Positions 40,653 to 60,669 of a stretch of DNA of 64,000 bases are shown here, in pieces. Both the position numbers and the translations under genes were made by a program. Under the pieces are notes generated by a model. That model ran no database searches and was not told the origin of the DNA. It saw only the letters and a list, made by a program, of their open reading frames with translations. The stretch is from Candidatus Pacearchaeota archaeon (GTDB lineage Archaea; Nanobdellota; Nanobdellia; Pacearchaeales; GW2011-AR1), in NCBI GenBank assembly GCA_017609175.1, contig JAFCEJ010000003.1:77817-141816 (forward strand). Direction: 5' to 3'. Numbering within the stretch: the first letter of the stretch is position 1; the number at the start of each line of letters is the position of its first letter.

Positions 40653-43382
40653 ATGAATGAATTAGATAAAAACGATTTGATAGAAGAAAGAAAAAAGAAA
40701 ATAATTAATCTCTTAAATAAACAAAAAGATTGGGTTTATTATACAATTCTGGGATTTATTGTTTTAGTTTCAATATATATAAGGTCGAGAAATATTTCAA
40801 AATTAAAAGATATTACTACAGGAACTTGGACATTGGGCCCTGACTTAGACCCTTTTTTATTCTTGAGGTGGGCAGAATACATTGTTGAGCATGGAAAATT
40901 AATGGCAATTGATACTATGAGGTATGTCCCATTAGGATTTGATACTGCTTATGAAATGAGATTGCTTCCATATTTAATTGCATGGTTTCATAAATTTCTC
41001 TCATTTTTTTCTTTGAGTGATAGTGTAACATATTCTGCAATAATTTTTCCTGTTTTTATGGCCGGATTAACAGCTATTGCGTTTTTTCTTTTTGCAAGAA
41101 AAATATTTTACAAAGAGGATAGAAAAACGAAAAACATAATTGCTTTAATTGCAACAGGTTTTTTTATTTTAGTACCATCTCTATTGCCAAGAACAATAGC
41201 AGGGATTCCTGAAAAAGAATCTGCTGCTTTCTTTTTTATGTTTATGGCGTTTTATTTCTTTTTAGAAGCATTTACCTCTGAAAAAATGAAAAAAAGTTTA
41301 GTTTTTGGGATTTTAGCTGGAATAACAACAGGATTAATGGCATTGATTTGGGGAGGCGCAACATTTGTTTTTATGAGTATTGGTGGAGCTGTTTTCTTTG
41401 CATTCGTCTTGGGAAAAATAACAACAAAAAGATTTTATTCTTATGGTTTATGGATTTTATTTTTTATGATTCTTATGGTTCCTTTTTCTACAAGATATTC
41501 TTTAATGAATTTGATAACATCAATTAGTACAGGCTTAAATTTTTTGATATTTTTCATAATTTTAACAAATTTCATTTTATTTGAAAAATTAAAATTTAAT
41601 AAAAAAATAAGAATTGATAACATACCAAAACAAATAATTTCAACAGCTATTTCTGTGGTAATTATCCTTATTTTAACTTCAATCTTTTTTGGAATTGGAT
41701 TTAATATAAACCAGTTTAAAGAAATTTTAGAAAGAACCGTTCATCCTCTGAGCACAACAAGATTCGCTCTCACAGTTGCAGAAAACAGGCAACCTTATTT
41801 TGTAAGTGATTGGAAAAATAGCCTTGGCCCAATTGTTTATAATATTCCGTTATTCTTTTGGTTATTTTTTATTGGTTCTATAGCAATGTTTAATCATTTA
41901 ATTAAAAGATTGAGAAAAAAAGAAAAGTTTATCTTAACATTCAGTTATACTGCCTTTTTATTTTGCCTTATATTCAGCAAATATTCTCCAAACAGTATTT
42001 TAAATGGAGAAAGTGGATTGAGCCTATTTGTTTATTTTGGCGGGGTATTATTTTTCATTGGAAGTTTTATATATCTTTATTTTAAAAAATATCATGAAGG
42101 GACTTTTCATAATTTCAAAGAATTTAATTTTTCATATATATTATACTTCACAATTTTAACAATGGCTATTGTAGGTGCGAGGGGGGCGGTAAGATTAATT
42201 ATGGTGTTGGCAGCAATTAGTCCAGTCGCAATTTCTTTTTTATCTGTTAAAATTTCACAAAGAGCAATTAAAGAACAAGAAGAAACAACAAAATTCTTTG
42301 TTAGATTAGCTGCGATAATAATTATCCTCATGGTGGTGCTTACACTCTGGACATATTATAAGCAGGACAGATATACCTCAGAAAATTTCGCTCCGAGTAT
42401 GTATAATATGCAATGGCAAAAAGCAATGAGTTGGGTCAGAGAGAATACTTCAAAGGATGCTGTTTTTGCCCATTGGTGGGATTATGGTTATTGGATCCAA
42501 AGTATTGGTGAAAGAGCAACAATTTTAGATGGAGGAAATGCGATTGTCTATTGGAATTATTTAATGGGAAGGTATGTCCTAACAGGAACAAATGAAAAAG
42601 ATGCATTAGAATTTCTTTATACCCACAATGGAACACATCTTTTAATTGACTCGACAGAACTTGGAAAGTATACTGCCTTTTCAAGCATCGGTTCTGATGA
42701 AAATTATGACAGGTTCTCCTGGATTACTAACTTTTTTATGAATGAGAAACAAACCCGTGAAACAAAGGATGAAATAATATATACTTATTTTGGTGGGGCA
42801 TTAGTTGATGAAGATATAATTTGGAGTGAAAATGGAAAAGACATTTTCCTTCCTGAAAGAAAAGCAAGTGTCGGAGCAATTATTTTAAGAAAAGATAAAA
42901 CAGGAAAAATTCTCCAACCAGAAGCAATTTTTATATACAACAATCAGCAATATAGAATTCCATTAAGATATGCTTATTATAAAAATAAATTATATGACTT
43001 TGGTTCTGGATTAGATGCAGGAATATTTATTTATCCAAAAGCAGATATAACAAGAGACAATAACATAAGAATTAATGAAATAGGTGCGTTGTATTATCTT
43101 AGCAAAAGAACAATTCATTCAAACTTAATTAACCTATATTTATTTGACAAAAAATCAGAATATTTCAAATTAGTCCACACTGAAAGTAATTTAATAGTTG
43201 AAAATCTAAGACAACAAGGACAGGATATGGGAGAATTCATATATTATCAGGGATTTCAGGGGCCGATTAAAATCTGGGAGATAAATTATCCAGAAAACAT
43301 AAAACCAAACCAAGAATATCTTTTGAAAACATATCCAAATAAAAAATTAGAAATTGCAGATAAAAGTAAATACAATAATTAA
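40653..43382 (+). CDS. aglB: Archaeal oligosaccharyltransferase AglB (STT3)
   Basis: It has the WWDYGYWI motif, a 13-TM N-terminal domain and a C-terminal soluble domain. Its length is 909 aa. Confidence 0.95.
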   Translation: MNELDKNDLIEERKKKIINLLNKQKDWVYYTILGFIVLVSIYIRSRNISKLKDITTGTWTLGPDLDPFLFLRWAEYIVEHGKLMAIDTMRYVPLGFDTAYEMRLLPYLIAWFHKFLSFFSLSDSVTYSAIIFPVFMAGLTAIAFFLFARKIFYKEDRKTKNIIALIATGFFILVPSLLPRTIAGIPEKESAAFFFMFMAFYFFLEAFTSEKMKKSLVFGILAGITTGLMALIWGGATFVFMSIGGAVFFAFVLGKITTKRFYSYGLWILFFMILMVPFSTRYSLMNLITSISTGLNFLIFFIILTNFILFEKLKFNKKIRIDNIPKQIISTAISVVIILILTSIFFGIGFNINQFKEILERTVHPLSTTRFALTVAENRQPYFVSDWKNSLGPIVYNIPLFFWLFFIGSIAMFNHLIKRLRKKEKFILTFSYTAFLFCLIFSKYSPNSILNGESGLSLFVYFGGVLFFIGSFIYLYFKKYHEGTFHNFKEFNFSYILYFTILTMAIVGARGAVRLIMVLAAISPVAISFLSVKISQRAIKEQEETTKFFVRLAAIIIILMVVLTLWTYYKQDRYTSENFAPSMYNMQWQKAMSWVRENTSKDAVFAHWWDYGYWIQSIGERATILDGGNAIVYWNYLMGRYVLTGTNEKDALEFLYTHNGTHLLIDSTELGKYTAFSSIGSDENYDRFSWITNFFMNEKQTRETKDEIIYTYFGGALVDEDIIWSENGKDIFLPERKASVGAIILRKDKTGKILQPEAIFIYNNQQYRIPLRYAYYKNKLYDFGSGLDAGIFIYPKADITRDNNIRINEIGALYYLSKRTIHSNLINLYLFDKKSEYFKLVHTESNLIVENLRQQGQDMGEFIYYQGFQGPIKIWEINYPENIKPNQEYLLKTYPNKKLEIADKSKYNN

Positions 43383-43383
43383 A

Positions 43384-44379
43384 ATGGAGAAAATATTATT
43401 AATTCCAATTTTATTAAGTTTTTTTGTAACATTATTTTTCATTCCTGTTTGGATAAAAAGAGCGAAAAAATCTGGAATTATTGGAAAAGATATGAATAAA
43501 CTTTCAAAGAAAGAAATAGCAGAAGCAGGCGGTATTCCAATACTTTTTGCCTTCACCTTGGGGGTATTAACATATATTGCTATAAAAACATTTTATTTTA
43601 AAGCGACAGAAAATTTAATTGAAATTTTTTCTTTATTAAATGTTATTTTAATAATTGGTCTTGTAGGGCTTGTAGATGATATTCTTGGATGGAAAATTGG
43701 ATTGAATAAAAAAATTAGGATTTTCTTTTTATTTTTTGCAGCAATTCCTTTAATGGTAATAAATGCGGGGGAGTCAATGATGATGGGAATTGAATTTGGG
43801 TTATTATATCCCTTACTTTTTATTCCATTGGGGATCATTGGTGCTTCTGCCACATTTAATTTTTTAGCAGGATATAATGGGTTAGAAGCAAGTCAAGGAA
43901 GCTTGATTTTATTTGCATTAGCAATTGTAACATGGTTTACGAATAATGGTTGGTTAAGCATAATTTGTCTAATTATGACTGTTTGTTTAATTGCTTTTTA
44001 CATTTTTAACAAATATCCTGCAAAAGTTTTTCCGGGAGATAGTTTAACATACCCTGTTGGAGCATTAATTGCGACAATAGCAATTTTAGGAAATATTGAA
44101 AAAATTGCTGTTTTCTTTTTTATCCCATATGTTCTTGAAACAGGGTTAAAATTAAGAGGAAATTTAAAAAAACAGAGTTTTGCCAAAATAAATGAAGATG
44201 GGAGCCTGGAAATGCCCCATGAAAAAATATATGGGTTAGAACATTTGGCAATAAAAATTTTAAAAAAAATAAAAAAAGACCATAAGGTTTATGAAAAAGA
44301 TGTGGTTTATTTAATAAATTTGTTTCAAATCCTAATAATAATTGTAGGTTTTTTGATTTTTAGAAATTACTTGTTTTAA
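43384..44379 (+). CDS. aglH: UDP-HexNAc:dolichyl-phosphate HexNAc-1-phosphate transferase (GPT/WecA/MraY family, AglH-like)
   Basis: It has the VDDILGW DDxxG motif and multiple TM. The start was moved to 43384 because the tracked start at 43354 overlaps aglB. Confidence 0.85.
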   Translation: MEKILLIPILLSFFVTLFFIPVWIKRAKKSGIIGKDMNKLSKKEIAEAGGIPILFAFTLGVLTYIAIKTFYFKATENLIEIFSLLNVILIIGLVGLVDDILGWKIGLNKKIRIFFLFFAAIPLMVINAGESMMMGIEFGLLYPLLFIPLGIIGASATFNFLAGYNGLEASQGSLILFALAIVTWFTNNGWLSIICLIMTVCLIAFYIFNKYPAKVFPGDSLTYPVGALIATIAILGNIEKIAVFFFIPYVLETGLKLRGNLKKQSFAKINEDGSLEMPHEKIYGLEHLAIKILKKIKKDHKVYEKDVVYLINLFQILIIIVGFLIFRNYLF

Positions 44380-44380
44380 G

Positions 44381-45610
44381 ATGTTGAAAAAAATATTCTC
44401 GAATGAGTTGTATAAAGGAAGCATAATTTTAATTATTCTGTTAAATTTAGGAAATTTTTTTGGATATCTGTTTCAGTTTACTATGGCCCAACTACTTGGT
44501 CCAATTCTATACGGTGCTTTTGCTGTAGTTACAAATATTATTTTAGTTTTTGGAGTCCCGCTAATATCAATACAAACCATTGTTGCAAAACATACTGCTA
44601 AATTTAATGCCCAAAAAAATATTAGAAAAATAAAGGGACTATTTTTATTCCTCATAAAAAAGGTAATGATTATAGCGATAATTATCTTTTTTATTTTTAG
44701 TCTAATTTCTTTGTTTTTATCAAAATATCTTGGGATTAGTGTAGGTGTGTTAATTCTGACAGGATGTTTTATATTCGGAGGATTTTTACAATCAATTGGA
44801 CTCGGAATATTACAAGGATTAAAAAAGTTTAATGCATTAGGATTTAGTATTTTTGTTAATGGTTTTTTCAAATTTTCAATTGGTGTTTTTCTTGTCCTTT
44901 TAGGTTTGAAAATTTATGGAGCAGTACTTGGTTTTATCTTTGGAATAATAATCTCATTTATAATCGCCCTTTTATTTATAAAAGATGTTTTAAAAGCTAA
45001 AAAAACTGAAGAGAAAATAGATATCTTTATGAAAAATAATAGAATTGATTTTTTTGCGATGTTTATTTTTGTATTTATTTTCAGTTTAGATGTCATTTTT
45101 GCAAAAGCATTTTTCTCTCCAGAAATTGCAGGAAAATATGCCGTAATTTCAATGATCGGAAAGATAATTTTATTTTTTACAATGGCAATAGGAAATGTAA
45201 TGCTTCCTATAAATTCAGAAAAATTTGCAAAAGGACACCAAACAAAAAGAGTTTTTAGAAAATCTGTTTTATTAATTTGTTTAATCTGTGGAATTTCACT
45301 ATTTTTCTTTTTGTTGTTTCCAGAGTTAATTGTGAAAATATTATTCGGGGAGGAGTATATTTCTGGTTCAAATATCCTTCTTTATATCGGCATTGCTTTT
45401 AGCTTTATCTCCCTAATAAATATCTTTTTGCTTCAGATGATTTCTACAGATAAATTCAAAAAAAACCATTTGATTATAATGATTTTGCTTCTTGGATTAC
45501 AAATAATGATTTTTTCAATGTTTCATAAAACTATAGAACAATTTAGTATGGGATTTATGTTCTCCACAATAATAAGCTTTATAGGGGTACTTTTATTGTC
45601 TAAAAAATGA
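44381..45610 (+). CDS. Oligosaccharide flippase (Wzx/MOP superfamily, AglR-like)
   Basis: It has 12 TM and the polysaccharide biosynthesis protein pattern. Confidence 0.7.
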   Translation: MLKKIFSNELYKGSIILIILLNLGNFFGYLFQFTMAQLLGPILYGAFAVVTNIILVFGVPLISIQTIVAKHTAKFNAQKNIRKIKGLFLFLIKKVMIIAIIIFFIFSLISLFLSKYLGISVGVLILTGCFIFGGFLQSIGLGILQGLKKFNALGFSIFVNGFFKFSIGVFLVLLGLKIYGAVLGFIFGIIISFIIALLFIKDVLKAKKTEEKIDIFMKNNRIDFFAMFIFVFIFSLDVIFAKAFFSPEIAGKYAVISMIGKIILFFTMAIGNVMLPINSEKFAKGHQTKRVFRKSVLLICLICGISLFFFLLFPELIVKILFGEEYISGSNILLYIGIAFSFISLINIFLLQMISTDKFKKNHLIIMILLLGLQIMIFSMFHKTIEQFSMGFMFSTIISFIGVLLLSKK

Positions 45611-46317
45611 AACTTTCAATCATAATGCCTATGTATAATTCAAAGGATATACAGACAAATCTGAAAGAGGCAATCAAATCATTAGAAAAAGTAACAAAGG
45701 ATTACGAGATAGTAGTCGTAGATGATGGAAGTGAAAATGGATGTTTTAAAGAAGCTAAAAAATTCAAAAGTAAAAAAGTAAGGGTTGTTGGATATCGTAA
45801 AAATAGGGGCAAGGGAAATGCAATAAAATACGGTTTTAAGTTTACGAGAGGGGATTATATTGCTTTTGTAGATTCTGGAAGGGATTTAAATCCAAAACAA
45901 TTAAAAGATTTTTTAGCAATTATGGAATCTGAAAAAGCAGATATAGTTATTGGAAGTAAAAGGCACCCCAAATCAAAAGTCTATTATCCCATTATAAGAA
46001 GAATTATGAGCAGAACATATCAACTCGTTAATAAGATTTTATTTAATCTAAATGTTAAGGACACTCAGGTTGGGATAAAATTGTTTAAGAGGAATGTTCT
46101 GGAAAAAATTATGCCAAAAATCGTAGTCAAAAAATTCGCATTTGATTTGGAGTTATTAGTTTTAGCAAACAAACATAATTTTAAAATAGTTGAGGCGCCA
46201 ATTGTTATGAATTATAGATTTAAGAGCACTGTAAATATCTCTGCGGTATTTTGGATGTTATGGGATACTGCAGCCATTTTTTATAGATTAAAAATTTTAA
46301 GATACTATGACAGTTAA
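45607..46317 (+). CDS. GT2 glycosyltransferase, dolichyl-phosphate sugar synthase-like (DPM1/AglJ-like)
   Basis: It has an N-terminal GT2 domain with VVVDDGSENG and a short length typical of Dol-P-sugar synthases. Confidence 0.8.
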   Translation: MKLSIIMPMYNSKDIQTNLKEAIKSLEKVTKDYEIVVVDDGSENGCFKEAKKFKSKKVRVVGYRKNRGKGNAIKYGFKFTRGDYIAFVDSGRDLNPKQLKDFLAIMESEKADIVIGSKRHPKSKVYYPIIRRIMSRTYQLVNKILFNLNVKDTQVGIKLFKRNVLEKIMPKIVVKKFAFDLELLVLANKHNFKIVEAPIVMNYRFKSTVNISAVFWMLWDTAAIFYRLKILRYYDS

Positions 46318-47290
46318 ATTTTCAATAATCATACCTGTAAAAGAATTTAATGATTATCTAAAAGAATCTATTCCAATAATTCTTAATTTGAATTATAAAG
46401 ATTATGAAGTGATAATACTTCCTAATAAAAAGCCGCAAAAAATTCCGAGTTATGCAAAAAATAAAAAAATAAAGATTATTGCAACAGGAAAAGTAAGCCC
46501 TGCAATTAAAAGAGATATCGGAGCTAAAAAGGCTAAAGGAAAATATCTTGCTTTCCTAGATGATGATGCATATCCAGAAAAAGATTGGTTAAAAACTGCA
46601 GAAAAAATTTTTGTAGAAAAAAAGGTTTCTGCAATTGGTGGTCCTGCGATCACCCCGAAAAACGATTCTATCTCTCAAAAAGCATCAGGATTATTTTATG
46701 AAACTCTTTTTGGGGGAGGAGGACTTAGTTTTAGATATAAACCAGACAAAAAATCTTTTTATGTTAAAGATTTTCCTTCAGTCAATTTAATTGTTTCAAA
46801 AAAATCTTTTTTTGAAGTTGGAGGATTTGATAACAAATTCTGGCCTGGCGAAGATACCAAATTTTGTTTAGAATTAATAAAAAAAGGACATAAGATTTGG
46901 TATTCTAATAAATTGATAGTTTACCACCATAGAAGAAAGTTGTTCAAACCACATTTAAAACAAATTGCAAATTATGGGAAGCATCGGGGGTATTTTGCAA
47001 AAAAATTTCCTGAAACATCAAGAAAAATAAATTATTTTATACCATCTTTATTTTTTATAGTAAATTTTTTGTTATTAATTGGTTCTTTTTTTAATATAAT
47101 TATCTTAAAAATATGGATTATCTTACTAATAATTTACTTTTCTTTTATTTGTATAGATGTTTTCATAAGAACGCTTGATTTAAGAATAGGAATTTTGACA
47201 ATGATAATTACTTTTTTATCTCATATAACATATGGAATTAAATTTATAGAAGGATTTTTCTCTAAAAAAATAAAAAGCGAATTAAGATGA
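46307..47290 (+). CDS. GT2 glycosyltransferase with C-terminal TM region
   Basis: It has [11 protein letters not shown] and a DDD motif (FLDDDAYPE). Confidence 0.75.
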
Positions 47291-48261
47291 AAAAAATATT
47301 AATAACTGGTGGAGCGGGGTTTATTGGTTCACATTTAGCAAAAGAGCTTTTAGAAAAAGGCTATGAAGTTACTGTAATGGACAACCTTTTTACAGGAAAC
47401 AAATCAAACATTTATGGGCTTTTAGATAATCCACGATTTAGTTTTATACTGCATGACATTACCAAACCATTTTGGGGACAGTTTGATGAGATTTACAATC
47501 TTGCTTGCCCTGCATCGCCAGTTCATTATCAAAAAAATCCTGTTGAAACAATTAAAACATCAATAATGGGAATTATAAATGTATTAGAATTAGGACTAAA
47601 AACCAAAGCAAAAATTTTACATGCATCTACCTCTGAAATTTATGGAGACCCTCTCCAACATCCTCAAAAAGAAAGTTATTGGGGGAATGTTAATCCAATT
47701 GGGATAAGAAGTTGTTATGATGAAGGTAAAAGAGCTTCTGAGACACTTTGTATGGATTATTTAAGAGAATATGATGTAGATGTTAGAATTGTAAGAATTT
47801 TTAATACATATGGTCCAAATATGCATCCAAACGATGGGCGTGTTGTAAGCAATTTCATTATGCAAGCATTAAAAAATCAAGATATCACAATTTATGGTAC
47901 AGGGAACCAAACAAGAAGTTTTCAATATATTGAAGATTTAATAAATATTCTAATAAAATTTATGGAAAAAGAAAAAGAAGAATTATATAATCAATTAAAA
48001 ATCCTTGGACGGGAAAAATTGCCAATTATCAATACAGGGAACCCAAGGGAAGTTACAATAACAGAACTTGCAACAAAAATACTTCAATTAATCCCAGAGA
48101 GCAGGAGTAAAATAATATTTAAGGATTTACCAAAAGATGATCCTAAAAGAAGAAAACCAGACATAACTCTTGCAAAAAATCTTTTTGGATGGGAGCCAAA
48201 GATAGAATTAGAAGAAGGCTTAAAAAATACAATTGAATATTTTAAAAAAACAATAATTTAA
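47287..48261 (+). CDS. uxs: UDP-glucuronate decarboxylase (UDP-xylose synthase, UXS)
   Basis: It matches UXS1 from end to end: [43 protein letters not shown] and [15 protein letters not shown]. Confidence 0.9.
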
Positions 48262-48262
48262 A

Positions 48263-49720
48263 ATGAAAGTTTTCATAAGTTATCCCCCATTAAAATCCGA
48301 GAAAGGAACTGCACAAATAGGACAAAACAGGCAGTTTCAATGGTTTAGCCAGCATTCTGTCATTTATCCAATGGTTCCGGCATATGCAGCGACCCTTTTA
48401 TCCAAAAAAGGTTATGATGTTTTTTGGGATGATGCTATTGCTAAAAAAGAAAGTTATGAGAAATGGATTGGAAGAGTTTCGAGAATAAAGCCAGATGTCA
48501 TTGCAATTGAAACAAAAACGCCTGTCGTTAAAATGCACTGGAAAGTAATCGAAGACATAAAAAAGAAATCGGCAAAAACAAAAATAGTCTTAATGGGAGA
48601 CCATGTAACAGAGTTTCCAAAAGAAAGTTTAGAGAATTCTAAAACCGATTTTGTCATAACAGGGGGGGATTATGATTTTGGATTATTATCAATTTGTGAA
48701 TATTTATCAAAAAACAAAAAACTTGGGAAGGGAATATGGTATAAAAAAAAGAACAAAATAAAAAACACTGGTAAATTTGAATTATCCCATGATTTAAATG
48801 ATTTACCTTTCATTGATAGAGAGTTAACAATGTGGTATCTCTATAAAGAAAATGGAAATTACAAATATTTGCCGGGAACATACATTATTGCAGGAAGAGA
48901 CTGCTGGTGGGGAAAATGTAAATTTTGTTCATGGCCAAATCTTTTTCCAAAATATAGGACAAGAAAACCAGAACTAGTGCTTGAAGAAATTAAATTTCTT
49001 GTGGAGAAATATGGAATAAGAGAGATAATGGATGACACGGGAACATTTCCTGTCGGAGATTGGTTAAAAAAATTCTGTAAATTAATGATTAAGTCTGGAT
49101 TAAATAAAAAAGTAAGAATAAGTTGCAATATGAGATTTGGTGTTTTAAAATTAGAAGACTACAAATTAATGAGAAAAGCAGGATTTAGATTTTTATTATT
49201 TGGTTTAGAATCCGCAAACCAGGAAACCTTAGATAAAATCAACAAAGGAATAAAAGTTAAGGATATTGAAGAGGGTTGTAAATGGGCAAAACAAGCAGGA
49301 TTAAATCCGCATCTAACATGCATGATTGGTTATCCTTGGGAAAATTATGAAATGGCAAAAAGAACTATTGATTTAGCAAAAAAACTTTTTAATAAAGGTT
49401 ATGCAGACACACTTCAAGCAACAATAATAATACCATACCCAAATACTCGGTTATATAAAGAATGCTTAAAAGAAAATTTATTGGAAGTAAAACAGGGTGA
49501 ATGGGAAAAATTTGATATGAGACAAAAGATCATGAAATCTCCCCTTACAGAAGAAGAGATAAAAGAACTTGTTTCTTCATTATATAAATTAGCCTTTAAT
49601 CCTCGATTTATTTTTAAGCAATTCACCCAGATAAGAAATCTTGATGACATGAAGTATATTTTTAGGGCAGCTAAAAAAATATTGGGCAAACATTTAAAAG
49701 ATTTTTCTAATAGGAGATAA
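48263..49720 (+). CDS. B12-binding domain radical SAM protein (class B radical SAM family)
   Basis: It has an N-terminal cobalamin-binding-like Rossmann domain and then CWWGKCKFCSW (CxxxCxxC). Confidence 0.8.
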   Translation: MKVFISYPPLKSEKGTAQIGQNRQFQWFSQHSVIYPMVPAYAATLLSKKGYDVFWDDAIAKKESYEKWIGRVSRIKPDVIAIETKTPVVKMHWKVIEDIKKKSAKTKIVLMGDHVTEFPKESLENSKTDFVITGGDYDFGLLSICEYLSKNKKLGKGIWYKKKNKIKNTGKFELSHDLNDLPFIDRELTMWYLYKENGNYKYLPGTYIIAGRDCWWGKCKFCSWPNLFPKYRTRKPELVLEEIKFLVEKYGIREIMDDTGTFPVGDWLKKFCKLMIKSGLNKKVRISCNMRFGVLKLEDYKLMRKAGFRFLLFGLESANQETLDKINKGIKVKDIEEGCKWAKQAGLNPHLTCMIGYPWENYEMAKRTIDLAKKLFNKGYADTLQATIIIPYPNTRLYKECLKENLLEVKQGEWEKFDMRQKIMKSPLTEEEIKELVSSLYKLAFNPRFIFKQFTQIRNLDDMKYIFRAAKKILGKHLKDFSNRR

Positions 49721-49721
49721 A

Positions 49722-50615
49722 ATGAAAAATCCACTAGTGTCTGTTATTATAACCACAAGAAATGAAGAAAAAAATATTGAAAACTGCTTAAAAAGCGTAA
49801 TATGCCAAACATATAAAAATATTGAAATAATTGTTGTAGATAACAATTCTAAAGATAAAACAAAAGAAATTTCTAAAAAATATACTAAAAAAGTTTTCAA
49901 TAAAGGTCCTGAAAGATCTGCACAGAGAAATTATGGAATAATTAAAAAAGCAAAGGGGAAATTTGTAATATTCCTCGATGCAGATATGATTTTATCCCCC
50001 TCTATAATAGAGAAATGTGTTGAAAAAATGGAAACTGGAAAGTATTCTGCATTACATATTCCAGAAATTGTTTTAGGAAAAGGTTTCTTTAGCTCAGTTA
50101 GAAGATTTGAAAGAAGTTTTTATAATGGAACTGTAATTGATGGGGTAAGGTTTTTGGTAAGAGAAGATTTTGTAAAAGTAGGTGGTTTTGATGAAACAAT
50201 GAGTGGTCCAGAGGATTGGGATTTGGATAAAAGAATAAAACAAATAGGAAAAATTGGTTTATTAAAAGAAAAAGAGGAAAATTTTAATGAGTGGAAATTA
50301 AAGGATTTGGTAATAAAAAAAGGATTAAAACCCGAAAAATATGGGTGTGTTATTTATCACAATGAATCTGAATTTAATTTGAAGAAATATCTTTCAAAAA
50401 AAAGATATTATTCAAAAAGTTTTGATAAATATATTAAAAAATGGGGAGAAAAAGATGAAGATATCAAAAAACAATTTGGAATTTATTATAGATTCTTAGG
50501 GGTTTTTATTGAAAGAGGCAAATGGAAAAAGCTTATTGCTCATCCAGTTTTAACATTTGGTATGTATTACTTAAGAATCCTTGTAGGGATTAATTTTTTG
50601 AAGAGAAAATTATAA
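49722..50615 (+). CDS. GT2 glycosyltransferase
   Basis: It has VSVIITTRNEEKNI and FLDADM. Confidence 0.8.
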   Translation: MKNPLVSVIITTRNEEKNIENCLKSVICQTYKNIEIIVVDNNSKDKTKEISKKYTKKVFNKGPERSAQRNYGIIKKAKGKFVIFLDADMILSPSIIEKCVEKMETGKYSALHIPEIVLGKGFFSSVRRFERSFYNGTVIDGVRFLVREDFVKVGGFDETMSGPEDWDLDKRIKQIGKIGLLKEKEENFNEWKLKDLVIKKGLKPEKYGCVIYHNESEFNLKKYLSKKRYYSKSFDKYIKKWGEKDEDIKKQFGIYYRFLGVFIERGKWKKLIAHPVLTFGMYYLRILVGINFLKRKL

Positions 50616-50624
50616 AAATAAAAA

Positions 50625-51321
50625 ATGGAAGAAGAAAATTTTTCAAAAAAGAATATCTTATATTACCACGAAGATTTTTCCCAATTACTGTTACAGTATT
50701 TATTCTTAAAGAACCCCAAATCTTTTTTGGACGTTGGGGGGGGACGGAGGATTAGTCTATTTCCTAAATAAAAAAGGCTATCTTAAAAACATGGAGGTAT
50801 ATGTAATAGACATCTCTAAACATAGGATCAAACAAATTAAAAGAATAAATCCTTTATTTAAATGCTTTATTAATAATGCCATGGAAATGAAAAACATACA
50901 AACGGGTTCGATAGATTTTTTAGTATCTACACAAGTAATTGAACATGTTAAAGATGACAAAAAGATGGTAAAAGAAATTTCAAGAGTCTTAAAGAAAGAT
51001 GGTATTGCATATATTTCAACTATTTTTAAAAAAAGATATGGATGGTATTTTTACAAAAAAGATGGTAAATGGAGATTACATCCAGAACATGTAAGAGAGT
51101 ATACTTCAGACGACCAACTAATAAATATTTTAAAAGAAGAAAATTTTCAAATTATAGAAAATAAGAAGAATATGCTTTGGTTTCCAATAATAGAGCCGAT
51201 TTTTAGAATATTGAAAGTAAGAAGAGATATTTTTGAAATTAAATTTTTTAGTAAATTAAGAATTTTTAAGATACCGATAATTGGCTATTATGAATGGGAA
51301 TTAGTTATAAAGAAAAAATGA
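50625..51321 (+). pseudogene. Class I SAM-dependent methyltransferase disrupted by a +1 frameshift in a G8 homopolymer
   Basis: An ATG at 50625 opens ...KSFLDVGGG. The G8 run at 50736-50743 shifts the frame and a stop follows at 50769. The downstream ORF 50734-51321 continues DGGLVYFL.... With G7 the two parts fuse into one intact methyltransferase carrying LDVGGGDGG. Confidence 0.6.
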
Positions 51322-51992
51322 AATTTAAAACATCAATAGAACAAAGATTAACTGGAAGGCACAAAGCCTGTTTACTAATAGCAGATTTTAGAAATAAAAG
51401 AATTCTCGATATTGGGTGTGGTTATGGGTGGTTTGAGAAAAAAATAGGGAAAAAATCAAAAGAGATTGTTGGAATTGATTTAAATAAAAAAGATCTGGAA
51501 ATTGCAAAGAGTGAATGTAAAGAAAAGAATTGTTATTTTGAAAGAGGCTCTGCATTAAATTTAAAGAAATTTAAGAAAGATTATTTTGACATAGTTGTAA
51601 TGTTTGATGTAATTGAACATATTCCAAAAAATACTGAAAAAAATGCTTTAAGAGAGATAAAAAAGGTTTTGAAAAAAAGGGGGACTTTGATTATCACCAC
51701 TCCTGCAAATAATTTCTCAAAATTTTTTGACCCGGCATGGTATTTTGGGCATCGGCATTATCACATAAAAAAATTAAAAAAAATGCTCGAAAGTGAGGGA
51801 TTTGTCGTCGATAAAATAGGAATAAAAGGAGGGTTTTGGGAGTTACTTAGCATGACCTTATTTTACCCTTGCAAATGGATTTTTAATTCAGAAATCCCTT
51901 GCAAAAAATGGTTTGATAAAAAAAGAGATGAAGAATATTTAAAAAAGAAAAAAGGGTTTATGACAATATTTATTGTAGGATACAAAAAATAA
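51294..51992 (+). CDS. Class I SAM-dependent methyltransferase
   Basis: It has ILDIGCGYGWF (motif I). The start is either 51294 or 51319. Confidence 0.7.
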   Translation: MGISYKEKMKFKTSIEQRLTGRHKACLLIADFRNKRILDIGCGYGWFEKKIGKKSKEIVGIDLNKKDLEIAKSECKEKNCYFERGSALNLKKFKKDYFDIVVMFDVIEHIPKNTEKNALREIKKVLKKRGTLIITTPANNFSKFFDPAWYFGHRHYHIKKLKKMLESEGFVVDKIGIKGGFWELLSMTLFYPCKWIFNSEIPCKKWFDKKRDEEYLKKKKGFMTIFIVGYKK

Positions 51993-53693
51993 TCATCTTT
52001 TTCGACTTACCAAAAAATTTCCTATCGCTAAATAATCCAGGTTTGTCCCAAGAAAACAATTAATAGCATCCCTCGGAGAATTAACAATCGGTTCTCCTTT
52101 TCTATTGAAACTTGTATTTAAAATTACAGGAATTCCTGTTTCTGACTCAAAAGATTTTATCAATTTCCAATATTTCTCATTAACATCTTTCCTAACTGTT
52201 TGTGGCCTTGTTGTTCCATCTACATGAACCACTGCAGGGATTTCTTTAATTTTTTGTTTGGGAACATCAAAAGAAAGGTTCATAAAAGGAGCATAACAAT
52301 CGTTTATTAAATATTCTTTTCTTGCTTCATCTAACATTGAGGGGCAAAAAGGCCTCCACTCTTCTCTAAACTTTACTGCAATATTAACCCTATCACGAAA
52401 TTTAACATGTCTAGAATCTGCTAAGATGGATCTTGCGCCCAAGGCTCTTGGACCAATTTCTGCCCTACCCTGAAACCACCCAATAACTTTCCCTTTTGTT
52501 AATAGTTCCCCGCATATGCCCGAAATATCATCATATTCACGATATTTTATTTTTTTGTTTTCTTTTATTGTCTTATCTAATTCTTTTTTTAATTCTTCGT
52601 TTGTAAATCCAATTCCAAAATAAACATGTTTCATTTTTTTGAATTTTATCTTGGGTTTTAACTCTTTCTGAATCTGTAATGCAGAACCTAAGGCTAAACC
52701 CCCATCACCACAATGAGGAAAGGGTATAAAATTTATTTCTTCAAAATTATCTCTTATCCTCTTATTTAGTTTTACATTAAGGAAACATCCTCCTGCACCA
52801 ACTAAATTCATATTTCTTGTTTTATTGAGAACATTTGATAACCATTTTAAAATTTGGTCTTCAAAAACTTTCTGTCCTGCTGCAGCAGTATTTTTACTCC
52901 CATATTTATAACTTAAGAATCTAAAATATGCTGCTTCTGCTACAGATCCTCTTAATTGATTATTTATCCACCCCCCGTATAAATTCCAATATCTTCCACT
53001 AAACCCAAGCCCTTTTGCTTTCGGAACAAGTTTATATGCCTCTTTGCTTGCAAATTTTGGATCCCCATATGCTGCTAAGCCCATTACTTTATATTCATCA
53101 TTATAGATAGAGAATCCCAACCCATCTGTAAGAGCTTCATAATAATGGCCCATTGAACCGCTTTCATAAATATTTTTGATTCTCTTTATTCCCTTAGATA
53201 CCGAGTAGTTAACACTTCCAGATAGGCCATTTCCAATACCATCCAATGTAACTATTGTTGCTTTATCAAAACCAGACGTATAAAAAGCTGAAGCGGCATG
53301 AGCCAAATGGTGTTCTACTCCGAGTATTTTTTTTGATTTTACAAAGTGATTAATTTTTGAATAGATATTTCCCTTACCCGCTTCTTTCTTTAAAAGCATT
53401 TTAATCAATTTTAAAATATATTCTGGCCTTCCAATGTTGTCAAAGGCGGTAGCAATCATCCTTCCAATACCATATTTAGAAGGGATTGCAATATAATCAA
53501 CATCCTCTAAAGAAATTCCTTCAAAATCAAGAACAAATTTTGTTGATAATTCTGGAAAATCCATGCCCCAATGTTTTATCCGAGTAAACCGTTCTTCATC
53601 TGCAGCAGCAACTATTTTGCCATCTTTTATTAAAGCGGCTCCTGCATCATGATGGGTATGTAAACCAAGAATGTACATATTAATTACTTTCAA
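51993..53693 (-). CDS. Carbamoyltransferase (NodU/CmcH family)
   Basis: N-terminus MYILGLHTHHDAGAALIKDGKIVAAADEERFTRIKH (Kae1-like fold). Its length is 566 aa. Confidence 0.85.
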   Translation of the reverse strand: MKVINMYILGLHTHHDAGAALIKDGKIVAAADEERFTRIKHWGMDFPELSTKFVLDFEGISLEDVDYIAIPSKYGIGRMIATAFDNIGRPEYILKLIKMLLKKEAGKGNIYSKINHFVKSKKILGVEHHLAHAASAFYTSGFDKATIVTLDGIGNGLSGSVNYSVSKGIKRIKNIYESGSMGHYYEALTDGLGFSIYNDEYKVMGLAAYGDPKFASKEAYKLVPKAKGLGFSGRYWNLYGGWINNQLRGSVAEAAYFRFLSYKYGSKNTAAAGQKVFEDQILKWLSNVLNKTRNMNLVGAGGCFLNVKLNKRIRDNFEEINFIPFPHCGDGGLALGSALQIQKELKPKIKFKKMKHVYFGIGFTNEELKKELDKTIKENKKIKYREYDDISGICGELLTKGKVIGWFQGRAEIGPRALGARSILADSRHVKFRDRVNIAVKFREEWRPFCPSMLDEARKEYLINDCYAPFMNLSFDVPKQKIKEIPAVVHVDGTTRPQTVRKDVNEKYWKLIKSFESETGIPVILNTSFNRKGEPIVNSPRDAINCFLGTNLDYLAIGNFLVSRKR

Positions 53694-53725
53694 TCCTTAT
53701 TTTTAAATTTGTATATTCTAAAAAA

Positions 53726-55273
53726 CTAGTTATTAAATTTATAGATTATAAGTGTTGGTTGCCCATTCCTATAAAATGCTTTTACAAAAGTCAAATTATG
53801 CTGTTGAGGGTAAGTATAAGCCCATTGAGGGGTAAATGCAGGTTCAAATCCATGTATAATAAAATAATGAGGCTTAATTTTTTGAATTTTTTTATCAAAA
53901 AGGGTTTTATTATGGACCCCATTAGGATCTGTTTCATTTCTAACATAAAAATCATAACAACTTCTTTCAGAGTAATATTGCATTTGGACGATTGAAGCAG
54001 TTATAATTTTTGCATCCTTTGGGGTACTTTGTTTTAACCATAAACCTGCATCTTTTAATTCCTGGTAACTTCCAAATTTAGCATCAATAAAATTATTAGA
54101 GGATTTTATCTGAAAAAAAGAAAGAATTACAATAAAAAGAATAATAAATAAAAGAGTTGAGGTTTTTTTATTAAAAAAAGAAGATAATTTTGTTAGAAGA
54201 TAATTAACTCCATATGCAGAAGTTACACTAATAGTTGGAAATAAAATTAAAAGATATCTTGCATCAATATTTTTTATTCCAAAAATAAAATAAGAGACGG
54301 GAATTAATAAATTTAAGAAGATAAAAAGCAAATGATTTCTAGATTTATTTTTTTGTAGAAAAATTAAATCAATATAAAAGAATAACTGCAGAATCAAAAT
54401 AAATCCGATGATGAAAAAGATTATTAAAAAATTATTCAATAAAAGAGGAAGATGAAAAGTGAGGACATTCCATCCAAAAGGGCTTTGTTTAACAGTGGGA
54501 TTTGAACCATGATAAAAACCTAGTGCCGGAAAAATATTTCCGAAATGAGATTGATTAAATAAAAAGAAAGGACTTAAAAAAAGAAGACCCAAGATTATTG
54601 CGATATAAAATTGCTTTTTTCTAAATAAAGACATTCTTTCGGTAATCAACATGTATGTTGCTATGGAAATTAAAATTAAAGCTCCAGTATATCTTGCAAG
54701 AAAAGATAAAATTCCAAAAAAGACTGCAAAATAAAGTCCAAAATTTTTTTGTTTTCCTTCATAATAAATCAAAAAGAAGAAAATAGCTAAGGTTCCAAAA
54801 AAAGTGCTTGGAATATCTGTTAAAAGCCTAAATGAATAAAACACCCAAACCCAATTAAAGGAGAAAATAGAAGTTGAAATTATTGCTATTTTTTTATTAA
54901 AAAGATACTCAGATATTCGGTAAACCAAATAACAAGTTAATATTGACGGGATAAGAAGTGTAAAAAACCGGATTGCTGTTTCACCTAATCCTATTTTAAA
55001 AAATAAACTCCATATAAAAGGGATGAATAATGGTCGCATTAAGATAAAATGTTCCCACCATTCTGGTATTGGTTGATTCAGCCCCCAAACTTTTGCTATA
55101 GCTAAATAATCTCCTTCATCCCACCAAATTGGCTGGTTTCCAAGCTTAAAAAAATAGTAAAGATAAACGAAAATTACAGCAATTCCAAGAAAAACAGATA
55201 TTTGATTATATGGGTCCTTAAGCCAATTTTTTATTTTCTCTTTTTTTTCAAGAATTTTTTCTTCAGATTCCAT
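53726..55273 (-). CDS. GT-C fold glycosyltransferase (ArnT/PMT-like, GT39/GT83-type)
   Basis: It has more than 10 TM, a WWDEGDY motif in the first loop and a C-terminal soluble domain. Confidence 0.6.
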   Translation of the reverse strand: MESEEKILEKKEKIKNWLKDPYNQISVFLGIAVIFVYLYYFFKLGNQPIWWDEGDYLAIAKVWGLNQPIPEWWEHFILMRPLFIPFIWSLFFKIGLGETAIRFFTLLIPSILTCYLVYRISEYLFNKKIAIISTSIFSFNWVWVFYSFRLLTDIPSTFFGTLAIFFFLIYYEGKQKNFGLYFAVFFGILSFLARYTGALILISIATYMLITERMSLFRKKQFYIAIILGLLFLSPFFLFNQSHFGNIFPALGFYHGSNPTVKQSPFGWNVLTFHLPLLLNNFLIIFFIIGFILILQLFFYIDLIFLQKNKSRNHLLFIFLNLLIPVSYFIFGIKNIDARYLLILFPTISVTSAYGVNYLLTKLSSFFNKKTSTLLFIILFIVILSFFQIKSSNNFIDAKFGSYQELKDAGLWLKQSTPKDAKIITASIVQMQYYSERSCYDFYVRNETDPNGVHNKTLFDKKIQKIKPHYFIIHGFEPAFTPQWAYTYPQQHNLTFVKAFYRNGQPTLIIYKFNN

Positions 55274-55299
55274 AATATTAAATAATTTTTAGGTTTTTA

Positions 55300-59225: not shown

Positions 59226-59466
59226 AGAAAATGGATGGTTTTTTTATTACGAATGGAATAAATGGGTAAACAGAAGATGCTAAACTCCATTCAATACCCC
59301 ATGTATTTAAACATCCGGGGCATTTTTTTATATCTTGCCTTATTTTTTTTGCGAGAGAAGACTTCCAAATTTTTGTTGGAGAATCTTTCAAGATATTTCC
59401 GGCTACAATATGGGATTTCATAAGACAAGGAGTCACATCACCATTATATCTTAATAAAAAAACTAT
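59212..59466 (-). pseudogene. C-terminal remnant of a second radical SAM/SPASM gene
   Basis: ...YNGDVTPCLMKSHIVAGNIL...IRQDIKKCPGCLNTWG aligns with the C-terminus of the 57286 protein (IDVEGNLIMCCRDYESKIKLGNIL...IRKRQLEGDFSMPICNRC). No radical SAM N-terminal part is present. Confidence 0.5.
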
Positions 59467-59546
59467 TTAAAACAAAACACCGAAATCTAAAATTATCTTT
59501 AATGATTTTAACTAATGCTTCATGATGAAATCCCTCAGGAAATTTC

Positions 59547-59711
59547 CTAATTGCTTTTAATAATTTTTTCTATATCCTCGGTAGAACCATCATCAACTAC
59601 GATAACCTCATAATGCTTATAAGTTTGATTAAATATGGACCTCAACGTATCTGTAAGGGTTTTAGAACAATTTTTTACTGGGATAATAATAGAAAATTGG
59701 ATATTTTTCAT
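59547..59711 (-). pseudogene. N-terminal remnant (54 aa) of a GT2 glycosyltransferase
   Basis: [54 protein letters not shown] then stop. This is a canonical GT2 N-terminus that ends prematurely. Confidence 0.5.
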
Positions 59712-59762
59712 AAGAAGACAAATATATTTAAATTTATAATCTTTGTTATCTTATCTATAAAA

Positions 59763-60614: not shown

Positions 60615-60669
60615 GATATAAAAAAAGAATAATCCAAACAGATTTAAAGAAAAATTTTAACATAAGAAT

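What the first reader, a model, noticed from the sequence alone, without database searches (positions are those of the whole stretch)
48263..49720. Cobalamin-binding radical SAM enzyme inside the glycan cluster of a likely cofactor-auxotrophic archaeon
A class-B-type radical SAM (B12-binding domain plus CWWGKCKFCSW) sits between UXS and a GT2. Such enzymes typically methylate unactivated carbons. Here that predicts a C-methylated or otherwise radical-modified sugar. It also implies cobalamin uptake, since small DPANN-like genomes rarely encode B12 synthesis.
Basis: partly seen in the sequence, partly recalled or inferred. Interest (0 to 1): 0.55.

Follow-up and report, generated by a model that had tools for sequence, protein, structure and literature searches.

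The report
B12-type radical SAM glycan-tailoring enzyme
The gene is a real cobalamin-type radical SAM enzyme inside an archaeal protein-glycosylation cluster, and it belongs to a large, very conserved, uncharacterised family that travels with the same glycosyltransferase genes in hundreds of archaea and bacteria; its chemistry is still unknown.

Summary
ORF 48263-49720 (+) encodes a 485-aa soluble protein with an N-terminal Rossmann domain of the cobalamin-binding type and a radical SAM barrel. A confident AlphaFold model matches TsrM, OxsB, TokK, CysS, MgmA and also AprD4. The motif CWWGKCKFCSW is present, but its spacing is CX4CX2C rather than the canonical CX3CX2C, and it is invariant in the family. 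The upstream gene is a true UDP-xylose synthase and the downstream gene is a GT2.

The gene is not a DPANN oddity. Relatives at 50% identity or more occur in over 568 species genomes of both domains. A membrane GT2 lies directly upstream in 64 of 73 informative loci. The usual arrangement is a flippase-GT2-GT2-rSAM-GT2 cassette.

The closest curated family is HpnJ, a sugar ring-contraction enzyme, but the score is far below its cut-off. C-methylation is therefore only the leading guess; rearrangement or AprD4-like dehydration remain open.

Cobalamin binding is supported by fold and conservation but is not shown. DxHxxG is absent, but it is not a valid test for this enzyme class. Cobalamin uptake cannot be assessed from 64 kb, and no cobalamin genes or riboswitch were found. 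Overall this is an uncharacterised variant of a known enzyme class, of moderate interest.

The parts
48263..49720 (+). Class-B-type (cobalamin-binding-domain) radical SAM enzyme, 485 aa, soluble
   Evidence: Pfam PF04055 and PF02310. NCBIfam HpnJ is the best hit at 169.6 bits, below its cut-off. AF2 model has pLDDT 88.9 and pTM 0.89. Foldseek matches AprD4, TsrM, MgmA, CysS, OxsB and TokK. No TM segment.
48263..48772 (+). N-terminal five-stranded Rossmann domain plus beta-hairpin (residues 1-170), the presumed cobalamin-binding domain
   Evidence: Model strands are at 2-7, 52-57, 79-84, 107-112 and 130-132, with a hairpin at 158-168. This matches the class-1 topology described in PMC13331322. 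34% of its columns are >=95% conserved, against 36% in the rSAM core, and the most conserved segments are the loops after strands 1, 3 and 4.
48902..48934 (+). [4Fe-4S] cluster motif C214-W-W-G-K-C219-K-F-C222-S-W (CX4CX2C)
   Evidence: The three Cys are invariant in 120 homologues. More distant relatives at 31-33% identity carry the canonical RGCPxxCxFC.
46307..47290 (+). Membrane-anchored GT2 (327 aa), the conserved partner of the rSAM
   Evidence: Pfam GT2. C-terminal hydrophobic helices at 240-303. AF2 model pLDDT 93.5 with an interface helix and three C-terminal helices. A homologue ends within 500 bp upstream of the rSAM, on the same strand, in 64 of 73 loci.
45607..46317 (+). Soluble GT2 (236 aa) resembling the catalytic domain of polyprenyl-phosphate sugar synthases
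   Evidence: PDB best hit is Pyrococcus dolichol-P-mannose synthase at 1.5e-15 over residues 1-208. NCBIfam best hits are PpgS, AglJ and ArnC. Found in 52-57 of 83 loci.
44381..45610 (+). Wzx/MOP-type flippase
   Evidence: Pfam Polysacc_synt. 12-13 hydrophobic segments. Found in 35-39 of 83 loci.
47287..48261 (+). UDP-glucuronate decarboxylase (UDP-xylose synthase)
   Evidence: 360 bits, E 1e-106, to human UXS1. UXS-like genes at >=45% identity occur in 14 of 83 related loci.
49722..50615 (+). Soluble GT2 (297 aa), a frequent downstream partner
   Evidence: Pfam GT2. A homologue at >=40% identity starts within 500 bp downstream in 17 of 72 loci, and one is present in 33-37 loci overall.
40653..43382 (+). 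AglB/STT3 oligosaccharyltransferase, first gene of the tightly packed + strand array
   Evidence: Pfam STT3 and STT3-PglB_core.
43354..44379 (+). Glycos_transf_4 (MraY/AglH-like) polyprenyl-phosphate sugar-1-phosphate transferase, the initiating enzyme
   Evidence: Pfam PF00953 at 3.4e-29. Multiple TM segments.
50734..51992 (+). Two class-I SAM methyltransferases (50734-51321 and 51294-51992)
   Evidence: Pfam Methyltransf_11/23/25.
51993..57272 (-). Divergent arm of the cluster: NodU-like carbamoyltransferase, PMT_2 GT-C, GT2 and GT1
   Evidence: Pfam. NCBIfam NodU at 135 bits.
57286..62187 (.). Further cluster genes: rSAM-SPASM protein (57286-58344 +), two GT2 (58329-59225 + and 59613-60614 +), and a second MOP flippase (60670-62187 -)
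   Evidence: Pfam.

Best explanation
The gene encodes a functional class-B radical SAM enzyme: an N-terminal Rossmann domain of the cobalamin-binding type, a SAM-cleaving [4Fe-4S] barrel with an unusual CX4CX2C motif, and a helical C-terminus. It belongs to a large, uncharacterised and extremely conserved subfamily on the edge of the HpnJ/BchE-like clade.

It is the signature gene of a horizontally mobile glycan cassette. The core of the cassette is MOP flippase, DPMS-like GT2, membrane GT2, rSAM and GT2. Often it also carries UXS and an AftD-like or PMT_2-type GT-C. In this archaeon the cassette is embedded in the AglB-dependent glycosylation operon.

Inferred mechanism: the reduced cluster cleaves SAM, and the 5'-deoxyadenosyl radical abstracts a hydrogen from an unactivated carbon of the sugar handled by the adjacent membrane GT2. 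That sugar is either the GT2's nucleotide-activated donor or its lipid-linked product. Cobalamin then completes the reaction.

My estimates for the outcome, as shares of all possibilities, are:
- C-methylation through methylcobalamin, about 0.45.
- HpnJ/OxsB-type skeletal rearrangement, about 0.3.
- Anything else, the remainder.

Shown here: architecture, motif, conservation, cassette linkage. Inferred: substrate class, cobalamin use, reaction type.
For: Architecture:
- Pfam.
- Full-length NCBIfam alignments to HpnJ, BchE, PhpK and the ladderane rSAM.
- AF2 model at pLDDT 88.9.
- Foldseek TM 0.6-0.7 to TsrM, OxsB, TokK, CysS and MgmA.

N-terminal domain:
- It is as conserved as the catalytic core. 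The most conserved parts are the loops after strands 1, 3 and 4, where cobalamin sits in solved enzymes (PMC13331322).

Cluster cysteines:
- Invariant.

Cassette:
- The membrane GT2 is directly upstream in 64 of 73 loci.
- De novo clustering across 83 loci recovers GT2_327 (68), GT2_236 (52), SDR (44), GT2_297 (37) and Wzx (35).
- The same order is seen in Nitrospinota, Methanoperedens and other MAGs.
- AftD-like GT-C proteins occur in about 23 loci.

The window's operon is tightly packed, with 1-nt gaps.

Precedents for class-B or related rSAMs acting on sugars, including lipid-linked ones: HpnJ, MoeK5, GenK, OxsB and Cds (PMC9204698; PMC13459092).
Against: - No member of the subfamily has been characterised, and I found no paper on it.
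- The Pfam B12-binding score of the window protein is marginally under threshold.
- The best structural hit, AprD4, does not bind cobalamin (PMC12931638).
- The curated families with the highest scores are non-methylases.
- The fold of the partner GT2 did not single out polyprenyl-phosphate glycosyltransferases such as GtrB, DPMS or ArnC. The lipid-linked versus nucleotide-sugar question therefore stays open.
- The family is common in CPR and DPANN lineages, which from general knowledge lack cobalamin synthesis.
Confidence: 0.6

Rival explanations
1. A non-methylating rearrangement enzyme of the HpnJ, Cds or OxsB type. Hydrogen abstraction from the sugar ring would be followed by ring opening and re-closure. 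The product would be a ring-contracted, carbocyclic or branched sugar that the downstream GT2 or a GT-C then incorporates.
For: HpnJ is by far the best curated match, at 169.6 bits over the full length, and BchE is second. Intermediate relatives score up to 381 bits on the HpnJ model. HpnJ works after a GT2 (HpnI) on a lipid-linked hexosamine, and the archaeal rSAM Cds is proposed to contract a lipid-linked hexose (PMC13459092). Non-methylating cobalamin rSAMs all form or rearrange rings (PMC13598231).
Against: The score is far below the HpnJ cut-off of 577.6. The HMM library lacks models for the sugar methylases MoeK5, GenK and Fom3, and in similarity networks these co-cluster with HpnJ (PMC9204698). 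HpnJ chemistry itself rests on genetics only. Most characterised class-B enzymes are methylases.
Confidence: 0.27
2. A cobalamin-independent, AprD4-like radical dehydratase. The Rossmann domain would be structural only, and the enzyme would remove a hydroxyl from a sugar diol. A neighbouring SDR would then reduce the product to a deoxysugar.
For: AprD4 is the top Foldseek hit (E 2e-20, TM 0.68-0.75). It also appears in sequence and profile searches of the PDB. AprD4 lacks cobalamin despite sharing this architecture (PMC12931638). SDR genes are frequent neighbours, in 44 of 83 loci. This reading would also explain the family's abundance in cofactor-poor CPR and DPANN genomes.
Against: The AprD4 HMM gives only 27.9 bits and covers only residues 271-433. 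TsrM, OxsB, TokK and CysS score almost as well structurally. The N-terminal domain is as conserved as the catalytic core, including the loops that contact cobalamin in solved enzymes. The adjacent SDR is an orthodox UXS, not an AprD3-like reductase.
Confidence: 0.08
3. The enzyme does not act on a sugar at all. Instead it modifies the polyprenol or dolichol carrier, a membrane lipid or a protein, and it is only co-located with glycosylation genes.
For: Many relatives in the HpnJ/BchE-like clade act on lipids or tetrapyrroles, for example the ladderane rSAM and BchE. The partner GT2 is membrane-anchored.
Against: The pairing with one GT2 family is near-obligate, at 64 of 73 loci. The genes are embedded between glycosyltransferases and a flippase in hosts that use different carrier lipids in the two domains. 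No lipid-synthesis genes recur in the neighbourhoods.
Confidence: 0.05

Closest known systems
HpnJ (TIGR03471), hopanoid-associated B12-binding radical SAM protein
   Same: Same length and three-part architecture. It gives a full-length HMM alignment (residues 32-474) and is the best curated match. It acts downstream of a GT2 (HpnI) on a membrane-bound sugar (PMC13459092).
   Different: The score is 169.6 against a cut-off of 577.6. There are no hopanoid genes and the host is an archaeon. The cluster motif is CX4CX2C, whereas HpnJ/BchE-like relatives have CPxxCxFC. The context is a flippase/GT2 glycan cassette.
Cobalamin-dependent radical SAM sugar C-methylases (GenK, GenD1, MoeK5, Fms7)
   Same: Class-B architecture, tailoring of unactivated sugar carbons, and, from my own knowledge, a lipid-linked saccharide substrate in the case of MoeK5. 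In similarity networks MoeK5 and Fom3 co-localise with HpnJ (PMC9204698).
   Different: Those enzymes belong to antibiotic pathways of actinomycetes. Methyl transfer is not shown for this family.
AprD4, radical SAM 1,2-diol dehydratase of apramycin biosynthesis (PDB 6FD2)
   Same: It is the best structural match of the model. It acts on a sugar and has a Rossmann-like N-terminal domain followed by an rSAM barrel.
   Different: AprD4 binds no cobalamin (PMC12931638). Sequence similarity is confined to the C-terminal half of the barrel. The N-terminal domain here is highly conserved.
Structurally characterised class-1 cobalamin radical SAM enzymes (OxsB, TsrM, TokK, CysS, MgmA/QCMT)
   Same: A five-stranded Rossmann fold with a following hairpin, an rSAM barrel and a helical C-terminal domain. 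Foldseek E-values range from 1e-12 to 4e-19. No DxHxxG, as in all of them.
   Different: Only 12-20% identity. The substrates are different. The residue under the cobalt could not be assigned; the loop after strand 3 reads E83-T84-K85-T86-P87, not the Asn, Arg or Trp of OxsB, TsrM and TokK.

Membership tests
Radical SAM superfamily | Three-cysteine motif for the SAM-binding [4Fe-4S] cluster in a partial TIM barrel | tested here: met
   PF04055 at E 5.4e-21. C214, C219 and C222 are invariant. A barrel is predicted. The spacing is the non-canonical CX4CX2C; queuine lyase 6P78 shows a similar CIWGKCSFC.
Class B (cobalamin-dependent) radical SAM enzymes | N-terminal Rossmann-type cobalamin-binding domain preceding the rSAM domain | tested here: met
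   PF02310 scores 31.7 bits against a gathering score of 32.1, so it is marginal; most homologues are annotated with PF02310. The model has a five-stranded Rossmann fold plus hairpin. There are full-length Foldseek matches to TsrM, OxsB, TokK, CysS and MgmA.
Class B (cobalamin-dependent) radical SAM enzymes | Actual binding and use of cobalamin | not testable with these tools
   Support is indirect only: the N-terminal domain is as conserved as the core. AprD4 shows that this architecture can exist without cobalamin.
   No D.H..G string in the protein. This is not a defining feature: solved members are base-off and His-off (PMC12931638; PMC13331322).
HpnJ (TIGR03471) | Score at or above the curated cut-off of 577.6 bits | tested here: not met
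   169.6 bits.
HpnJ (TIGR03471) | Hopanoid biosynthesis gene context (hpnI, hpnK, shc) | tested here: not met
   The neighbours are AglB, a flippase, GT2s and UXS, and the host is archaeal.
BchE (TIGR02026) | Score at or above the curated cut-off of 481 bits | tested here: not met
   110.7 bits.
AprD4 family diol-dehydratase (NF033070) | Score at or above the curated cut-off of 500 bits | tested here: not met
   27.9 bits over residues 271-433 only, despite being the top structural hit.
Cobalamin-dependent radical SAM C-methyltransferases | Methyl transfer from SAM through methylcobalamin to a carbon radical, yielding both SAH and 5'-deoxyadenosine | not testable with these tools
   I know of no sequence signature that separates methylases from non-methylases.
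GT2-rSAM glycan cassette (defined here) | A GT2_327-type membrane GT2 immediately upstream on the same strand | tested here: met
   The window has this GT2 at 46307-47290, with UXS inserted between it and the rSAM. It is adjacent in 64 of 73 other loci.

The most novel reading that the evidence does not exclude
The family may catalyse a cobalamin-dependent, non-methylating carbon-skeleton rearrangement of a sugar, such as a ring contraction to a carbocyclic or branched sugar. The substrate would be a nucleotide- or polyprenol-linked sugar. The result would be an undescribed monosaccharide in the surface glycans of hundreds of uncultured archaea and bacteria, including CPR and DPANN cells that would have to scavenge cobalamin just to build their envelope. 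The trait would be carried by a cassette that moves freely between the two domains.
Probability: 0.25. Interest if true: 0.75.

Novelty: new variant of a known kind. Interest (0 to 1): 0.5.

Why it matters
Cobalamin-type radical SAM enzymes number more than 220,000 (PMC12931638), but only a few dozen have known reactions, and almost all of those come from antibiotic or cofactor pathways.

This subfamily differs in several ways:
- It is tied to cell-surface glycan assembly.
- It is conserved at 50% identity or more across both domains.
- It has one fixed glycosyltransferase partner.
- It occurs in at least one cultured organism with a complete genome, Methanocaldococcus indicus SL43.

That makes it a well-defined target for finding a new sugar modification. 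It also allows a test of whether minimal-genome symbionts depend on scavenged cobalamin for envelope synthesis. For annotation, the HpnJ, BchE and 'YgiQ' labels attached to these genes are not reliable.

Tried and rejected
1. DxHxxG as a test of B12 binding. The motif is absent, but I rejected it as a criterion because solved class-B enzymes are His-off.

3. Finding the source contig. Taxonomy rests on archaeal marker genes and the names attached to the closest homologues.

4. Finding a bona fide HpnJ among distant representatives. None reached the cut-off, and cluster names were uninformative.

5. Testing whether the partner GT2 is a polyprenyl-phosphate glycosyltransferase. Foldseek gave generic GT-A hits (WrtF, TarP, RmlT, BcsA, HAS) and not GtrB, DPMS or ArnC. 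The result is inconclusive.

6. Fusion (Rosetta-stone) proteins. The long homologues turned out to carry inteins and are not fusions.

7. Plasmid and phage carriage. There was only a distant Lawsonia plasmid hit at 28% identity, and no phage hit.

8. Literature. I found no paper on a B12-type rSAM in archaeal N-glycosylation or polysaccharide cassettes. The calditol synthase paper is not held.

9. Cobalamin genes and riboswitch in the window. None appeared among about 55 ORFs scanned with Pfam or in Rfam. The ORFs of the putative ribosomal-protein block at about 26-37 kb and several small ORFs were not scanned.
Full report
**1. The observation**

An ATG-to-TAA ORF occupies exactly 48263..49720 on the + strand and encodes 485 residues.

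- Pfam finds Radical_SAM at E 5.4e-21 over residues 211-372.
- Pfam finds B12-binding at 31.7 bits over residues 40-134, a hair under the 32.1 gathering score. Most homologues carry PF02310 in their precomputed annotation.
- The quoted CWWGKCKFCSW is residues 214-224.
- The upstream gene (47287..48261) is a true UDP-xylose synthase: 360 bits, E 1e-106, full length to human UXS1.
- The downstream gene (49722..50615) is a GT2.
- Both junctions leave a single nucleotide between stop and start.

One correction is needed: the cysteine spacing is C214-x4-C219-x2-C222, not the canonical CX3CX2C.

**2. The setting**

The window is archaeal. The evidence is a wyosine-forming rSAM, ribosomal L10P with its insertion domain, a diphthamide synthesis protein, an S-layer-like protein, IF5A, prefoldin and AglB/STT3. 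G+C is about 29%. The closest homologues that carry a name are from Nanoarchaeota, Woesearchaeota and Pacearchaeota, so a DPANN affiliation is plausible but not proven.

The rSAM lies inside a run of overlapping or abutting + strand genes:

| Position | Gene |
|---|---|
| 40653 | AglB |
| 43354 | MraY/AglH-type initiating transferase |
| 44381 | Wzx-type flippase |
| 45607 | GT2 of 236 aa |
| 46307 | GT2 of 327 aa |
| 47287 | UXS |
| 48263 | the rSAM |
| 49722 | GT2 of 297 aa |
| 50734 and 51294 | two SAM methyltransferases, the first after a 118-nt gap |

A divergent arm follows on the - strand: a NodU-like carbamoyltransferase, a PMT_2 GT-C, a GT2 and a GT1. After that come an rSAM-SPASM protein, two more GT2s and a second flippase, up to 62187.

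**3. The protein**

With a 60-sequence alignment, AlphaFold2 gives a confident model (pLDDT 88.9, pTM 0.89). Only the cofactor-less cluster loop at residues 216-228 is uncertain. The model has three parts:

- A five-stranded Rossmann domain (strands at 2-7, 52-57, 79-84, 107-112 and 130-132) followed by a beta-hairpin at 158-168.
- An rSAM barrel.
- A helical C-terminus.

This is the topology described for class-1 cobalamin-dependent rSAM enzymes (PMC13331322).

Foldseek against the PDB returns AprD4 (2e-20), TsrM (4e-19), MgmA/QCMT, CysS, OxsB and TokK, with TM-scores of 0.6-0.7, and then MiaB.

NCBIfam aligns the whole protein to HpnJ (169.6 bits, cut-off 577.6), BchE (110.7), PhpK (90) and the ladderane rSAM (81.7). 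AprD4 gets only 27.9 bits, over the C-terminal half of the barrel.

The protein is therefore a class-B-type enzyme. It is a member of none of the curated families.

**4. Does it bind cobalamin?**

All solved cobalamin-dependent rSAM enzymes bind the cofactor base-off and His-off, with a residue from the loop after strand 3 lying under the cobalt (PMC12931638; PMC13331322). The motif is indeed absent here.

More informative is the conservation of the N-terminal domain. 34% of its columns are at least 95% conserved, against 36% for the rSAM core. The most conserved segments are the long loop after strand 1 (QNRQFQWF...YP), the loop after strand 3 (E83-T84-K85-T86-P87) and the loop after strand 4 (G112-D113-H114-V-T). 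That edge of the sheet is where the corrin sits in solved enzymes. This argues for a ligand-binding domain rather than a vestigial one.

It is not proof. AprD4, the best structural hit, has a remotely Rossmann-like domain and binds no cobalamin (PMC12931638). I could not superpose structures residue by residue.

**5. The family**

The word-indexed search found 6424 hits at E <= 1e-5 among 8000 candidates. The best 120 are all at least 56% identical to the query and about 480-500 aa long.

The exhaustive search of 50%-identity representatives found 879 clusters at E <= 1e-30. The family proper collapses into only a few clusters, so it is tight.

Of the best 80, by my count of record titles, about 25 are archaeal and about 55 are bacterial.

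- Archaeal: Woesearchaeota, Micrarchaeia, Bathyarchaeia, Halobacteriota, Nitrososphaerota and the cultured Methanocaldococcus indicus SL43.
- Bacterial: Nitrospinota, Dehalococcoidales, Omnitrophota, Planctomycetes, Thermodesulfobacteriota, Spirochaetes, Lachnospiraceae, and CPR groups such as Saccharibacteria and Berkelbacteria.

Mean identity between domains (55.5%) is almost the same as within them (58-60%). This indicates repeated inter-domain transfer and strong constraint.

The CX4CX2C motif preceded by RD marks the family. Relatives at 31-33% identity, which score higher on the HpnJ and BchE models, have the canonical RGCPxxCxFC. Some intermediates have longer inserts or no cysteines at all.

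**6. The cassette**

This is the most informative result. Precomputed annotation of loci from Nitrospinota, Methanoperedens and another MAG shows the same order: flippase, GT2, GT2, rSAM.

I searched 83 fetched loci with the window's neighbours by tblastn:

- A homologue of the 327-aa GT2 ends within 500 bp upstream of the rSAM, on the same strand, in 64 of the 73 loci that have enough upstream sequence. Five more have it further upstream.
- The 236-aa GT2 is present in 57 loci.
- The flippase is present in 39 loci.
- The 297-aa GT2 is present in 33 loci. A homologue of at least 40% identity starts within 500 bp downstream in 17 of 72.
- A UXS-like gene at 45% identity or more is present in 14 loci.

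De novo clustering of 906 neighbouring ORFs gave the same partners and no other universal one. Seventeen loci hold a second B12-type rSAM paralogue.

A family of large membrane proteins, roughly 700-2000 aa, recurs in about 23 loci. One member hits GT-C_AftD and others carry carbohydrate-binding modules. The window instead has a PMT_2-type GT-C.

In M. indicus an IS240-type transposase abuts the GT2-rSAM pair.

**7. The partners**

- The 236-aa GT2 resembles the catalytic domain of Pyrococcus dolichol-phosphate-mannose synthase (E 1.5e-15). Its best curated families are polyprenyl-phosphate sugar synthases: PpgS, AglJ and ArnC. It has no membrane segment.
- The 327-aa partner is itself a large, constant-length family. 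Its model (pLDDT 93.5) shows a GT-A domain, an amphipathic helix rich in invariant His and Arg, and three C-terminal helices.
- Foldseek on that model gave only generic GT2 hits: WrtF, TarP, RmlT, hyaluronan synthase and cellulose synthase. Its acceptor is probably membrane-bound, but it cannot be called a polyprenyl-phosphate glycosyltransferase.

**8. How it most likely works**

Shown:

- A conserved rSAM core with an intact cluster motif.
- A conserved Rossmann domain of the cobalamin-binding type.
- Near-obligate linkage to one membrane GT2 within a flippase-containing glycan cassette.

Inferred:

- The enzyme abstracts a hydrogen from an unactivated carbon of the sugar that this GT2 handles, and cobalamin completes the reaction.

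Two substrate models fit:

- A nucleotide-activated sugar that only the cognate GT2 can then transfer. This suits the fact that the rSAM (50% identity or more) is more conserved than its GT2 partner (35-51%), and that the hosts use different carrier lipids.
- The lipid-linked product of the GT2, modified before flipping. This has precedent in HpnI/HpnJ, where HpnJ acts on a hopanoid-linked hexosamine made by the GT2 HpnI (PMC13459092). From my own knowledge MoeK5 also acts on a lipid-linked saccharide; PMC9204698 records only that it co-localises with HpnJ in similarity networks.

For the reaction type I estimate:

- C-methylation, about 0.45. This is the dominant chemistry of the class.
- HpnJ/OxsB/Cds-type rearrangement, about 0.3. 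HpnJ and BchE are the nearest curated families, and all known non-methylating members form or rearrange rings (PMC13598231).
- AprD4-like cobalamin-independent dehydration, about 0.08.
- Something else, the remainder.

**9. Cobalamin uptake**

About 55 ORFs of the window were scanned with Pfam. None is a corrinoid transporter, adenosyltransferase or biosynthetic enzyme. Rfam finds only two tRNAs. The ORFs of the putative ribosomal-protein block at about 26-37 kb and several small ORFs were not scanned.

A 64-kb window cannot settle a genome-wide question. The family's frequency in CPR and DPANN genomes cuts both ways. It may mean widespread scavenging, or it may hint that cobalamin is not needed.

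**10. Comparison with the known, and verdict**

The gene works like a class-B radical SAM sugar-tailoring enzyme. It fails the membership tests for HpnJ, BchE and AprD4. I found no literature on this subfamily or on B12-type rSAMs in archaeal N-glycosylation or polysaccharide cassettes.

I rate it a new variant of a known kind, for three reasons:

- It is an uncharacterised subfamily.
- It has its own cluster motif.
- It has a fixed, cross-domain gene cassette.

Interest is moderate (0.5). It is not surprising in kind, but it is a clean, widespread and experimentally approachable target for discovering a new sugar modification.

Noticed in passing
Not in the window; homologues P0121, P0122, P0125, P0126, P0127, P0154, P0225: Several family members carry inteins (Intein_splicing, LAGLIDADG_3 and Hint domains) inserted at the Fe-S cluster cysteines. 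In P0122 the insertion is before the first Cys (GRD|CFPAGT...VHN|CWW). In P0121, P0126, P0127, P0125 and P0225 it follows C..C.F, so the third cluster Cys would be the +1 residue.
   Followed up: partly
window 57286-58344 (+): A second radical SAM enzyme, of the SPASM/twitch type, sits in the same glycan cluster. Its best NCBIfam hits are tungsten-cofactor maturase-like and spiro-SPASM. The Nitrospinota loci L001-L004 and L012 also hold an rSAM-SPASM gene a few kb downstream of the B12-type rSAM.
   Followed up: partly
17 of 83 related loci, e.g. L005:14905-16290, L006:16545-18122, L085:14914-16356, L026 (three copies): Many glycan loci contain a second or third paralogous B12-binding radical SAM gene. 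Multiple radical tailoring steps in surface-glycan clusters therefore seem common.
   Followed up: no
About 23 related loci, e.g. L034:14480-17401, L078:9772-12975, L011:16882-21438, L001:20104 onward: A family of very large membrane proteins (700-2000 aa) recurs near the cassette. They have an N-terminal multi-TM domain, and one member hits GT-C_AftD. They carry C-terminal carbohydrate-binding modules (CBM_4_9, CBM_35, CBM_11). Most have no Pfam hit. The window has no homologue and carries a PMT_2 GT-C instead.
   Followed up: partly
L034:8348-8989 (Methanocaldococcus indicus SL43, NZ_CP186926.1): A DDE transposase of the IS240 type lies immediately upstream of the GT2-rSAM pair in a cultured methanogen. 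This is consistent with mobility of the cassette.
   Followed up: no
Representatives P0129, P0136, P0139, P0145, P0157 and P0130, P0134, P0135, P0140, P0153: Relatives at 40-44% identity have expanded cluster motifs, such as RDCWYRHEGGCTFC (CX7CX2C) or longer. Some lack the cysteines altogether and may be pseudo-enzymes or sequencing artefacts.
   Followed up: partly
window 50734-51321 (+): The first of the two methyltransferase ORFs starts at a TTG and aligns to methyltransferase models only from about profile position 6-31 onward. Its N-terminus looks truncated. It may be a decaying duplicate of the gene that follows.
   Followed up: no
window 51993-53693 (-): A NodU/CmcH-type carbamoyltransferase lies in the archaeal glycosylation cluster. 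This predicts O-carbamoylated sugars in the glycan.
   Followed up: no
L025:7214-9235 and L051:12954-14915: In these loci the GT2_297-type glycosyltransferase is part of a longer ORF of 654-674 aa. In L025 the extra part resembles the window's GT1 (24% identity). This links these two steps of the pathway.
   Followed up: no
window 4064-4684 (+) and 41-1627 (+): A PAP2-family phosphatase, possibly a polyprenyl-diphosphate phosphatase, and an S-layer-like protein, a possible glycosylation target, lie elsewhere in the window.
   Followed up: no
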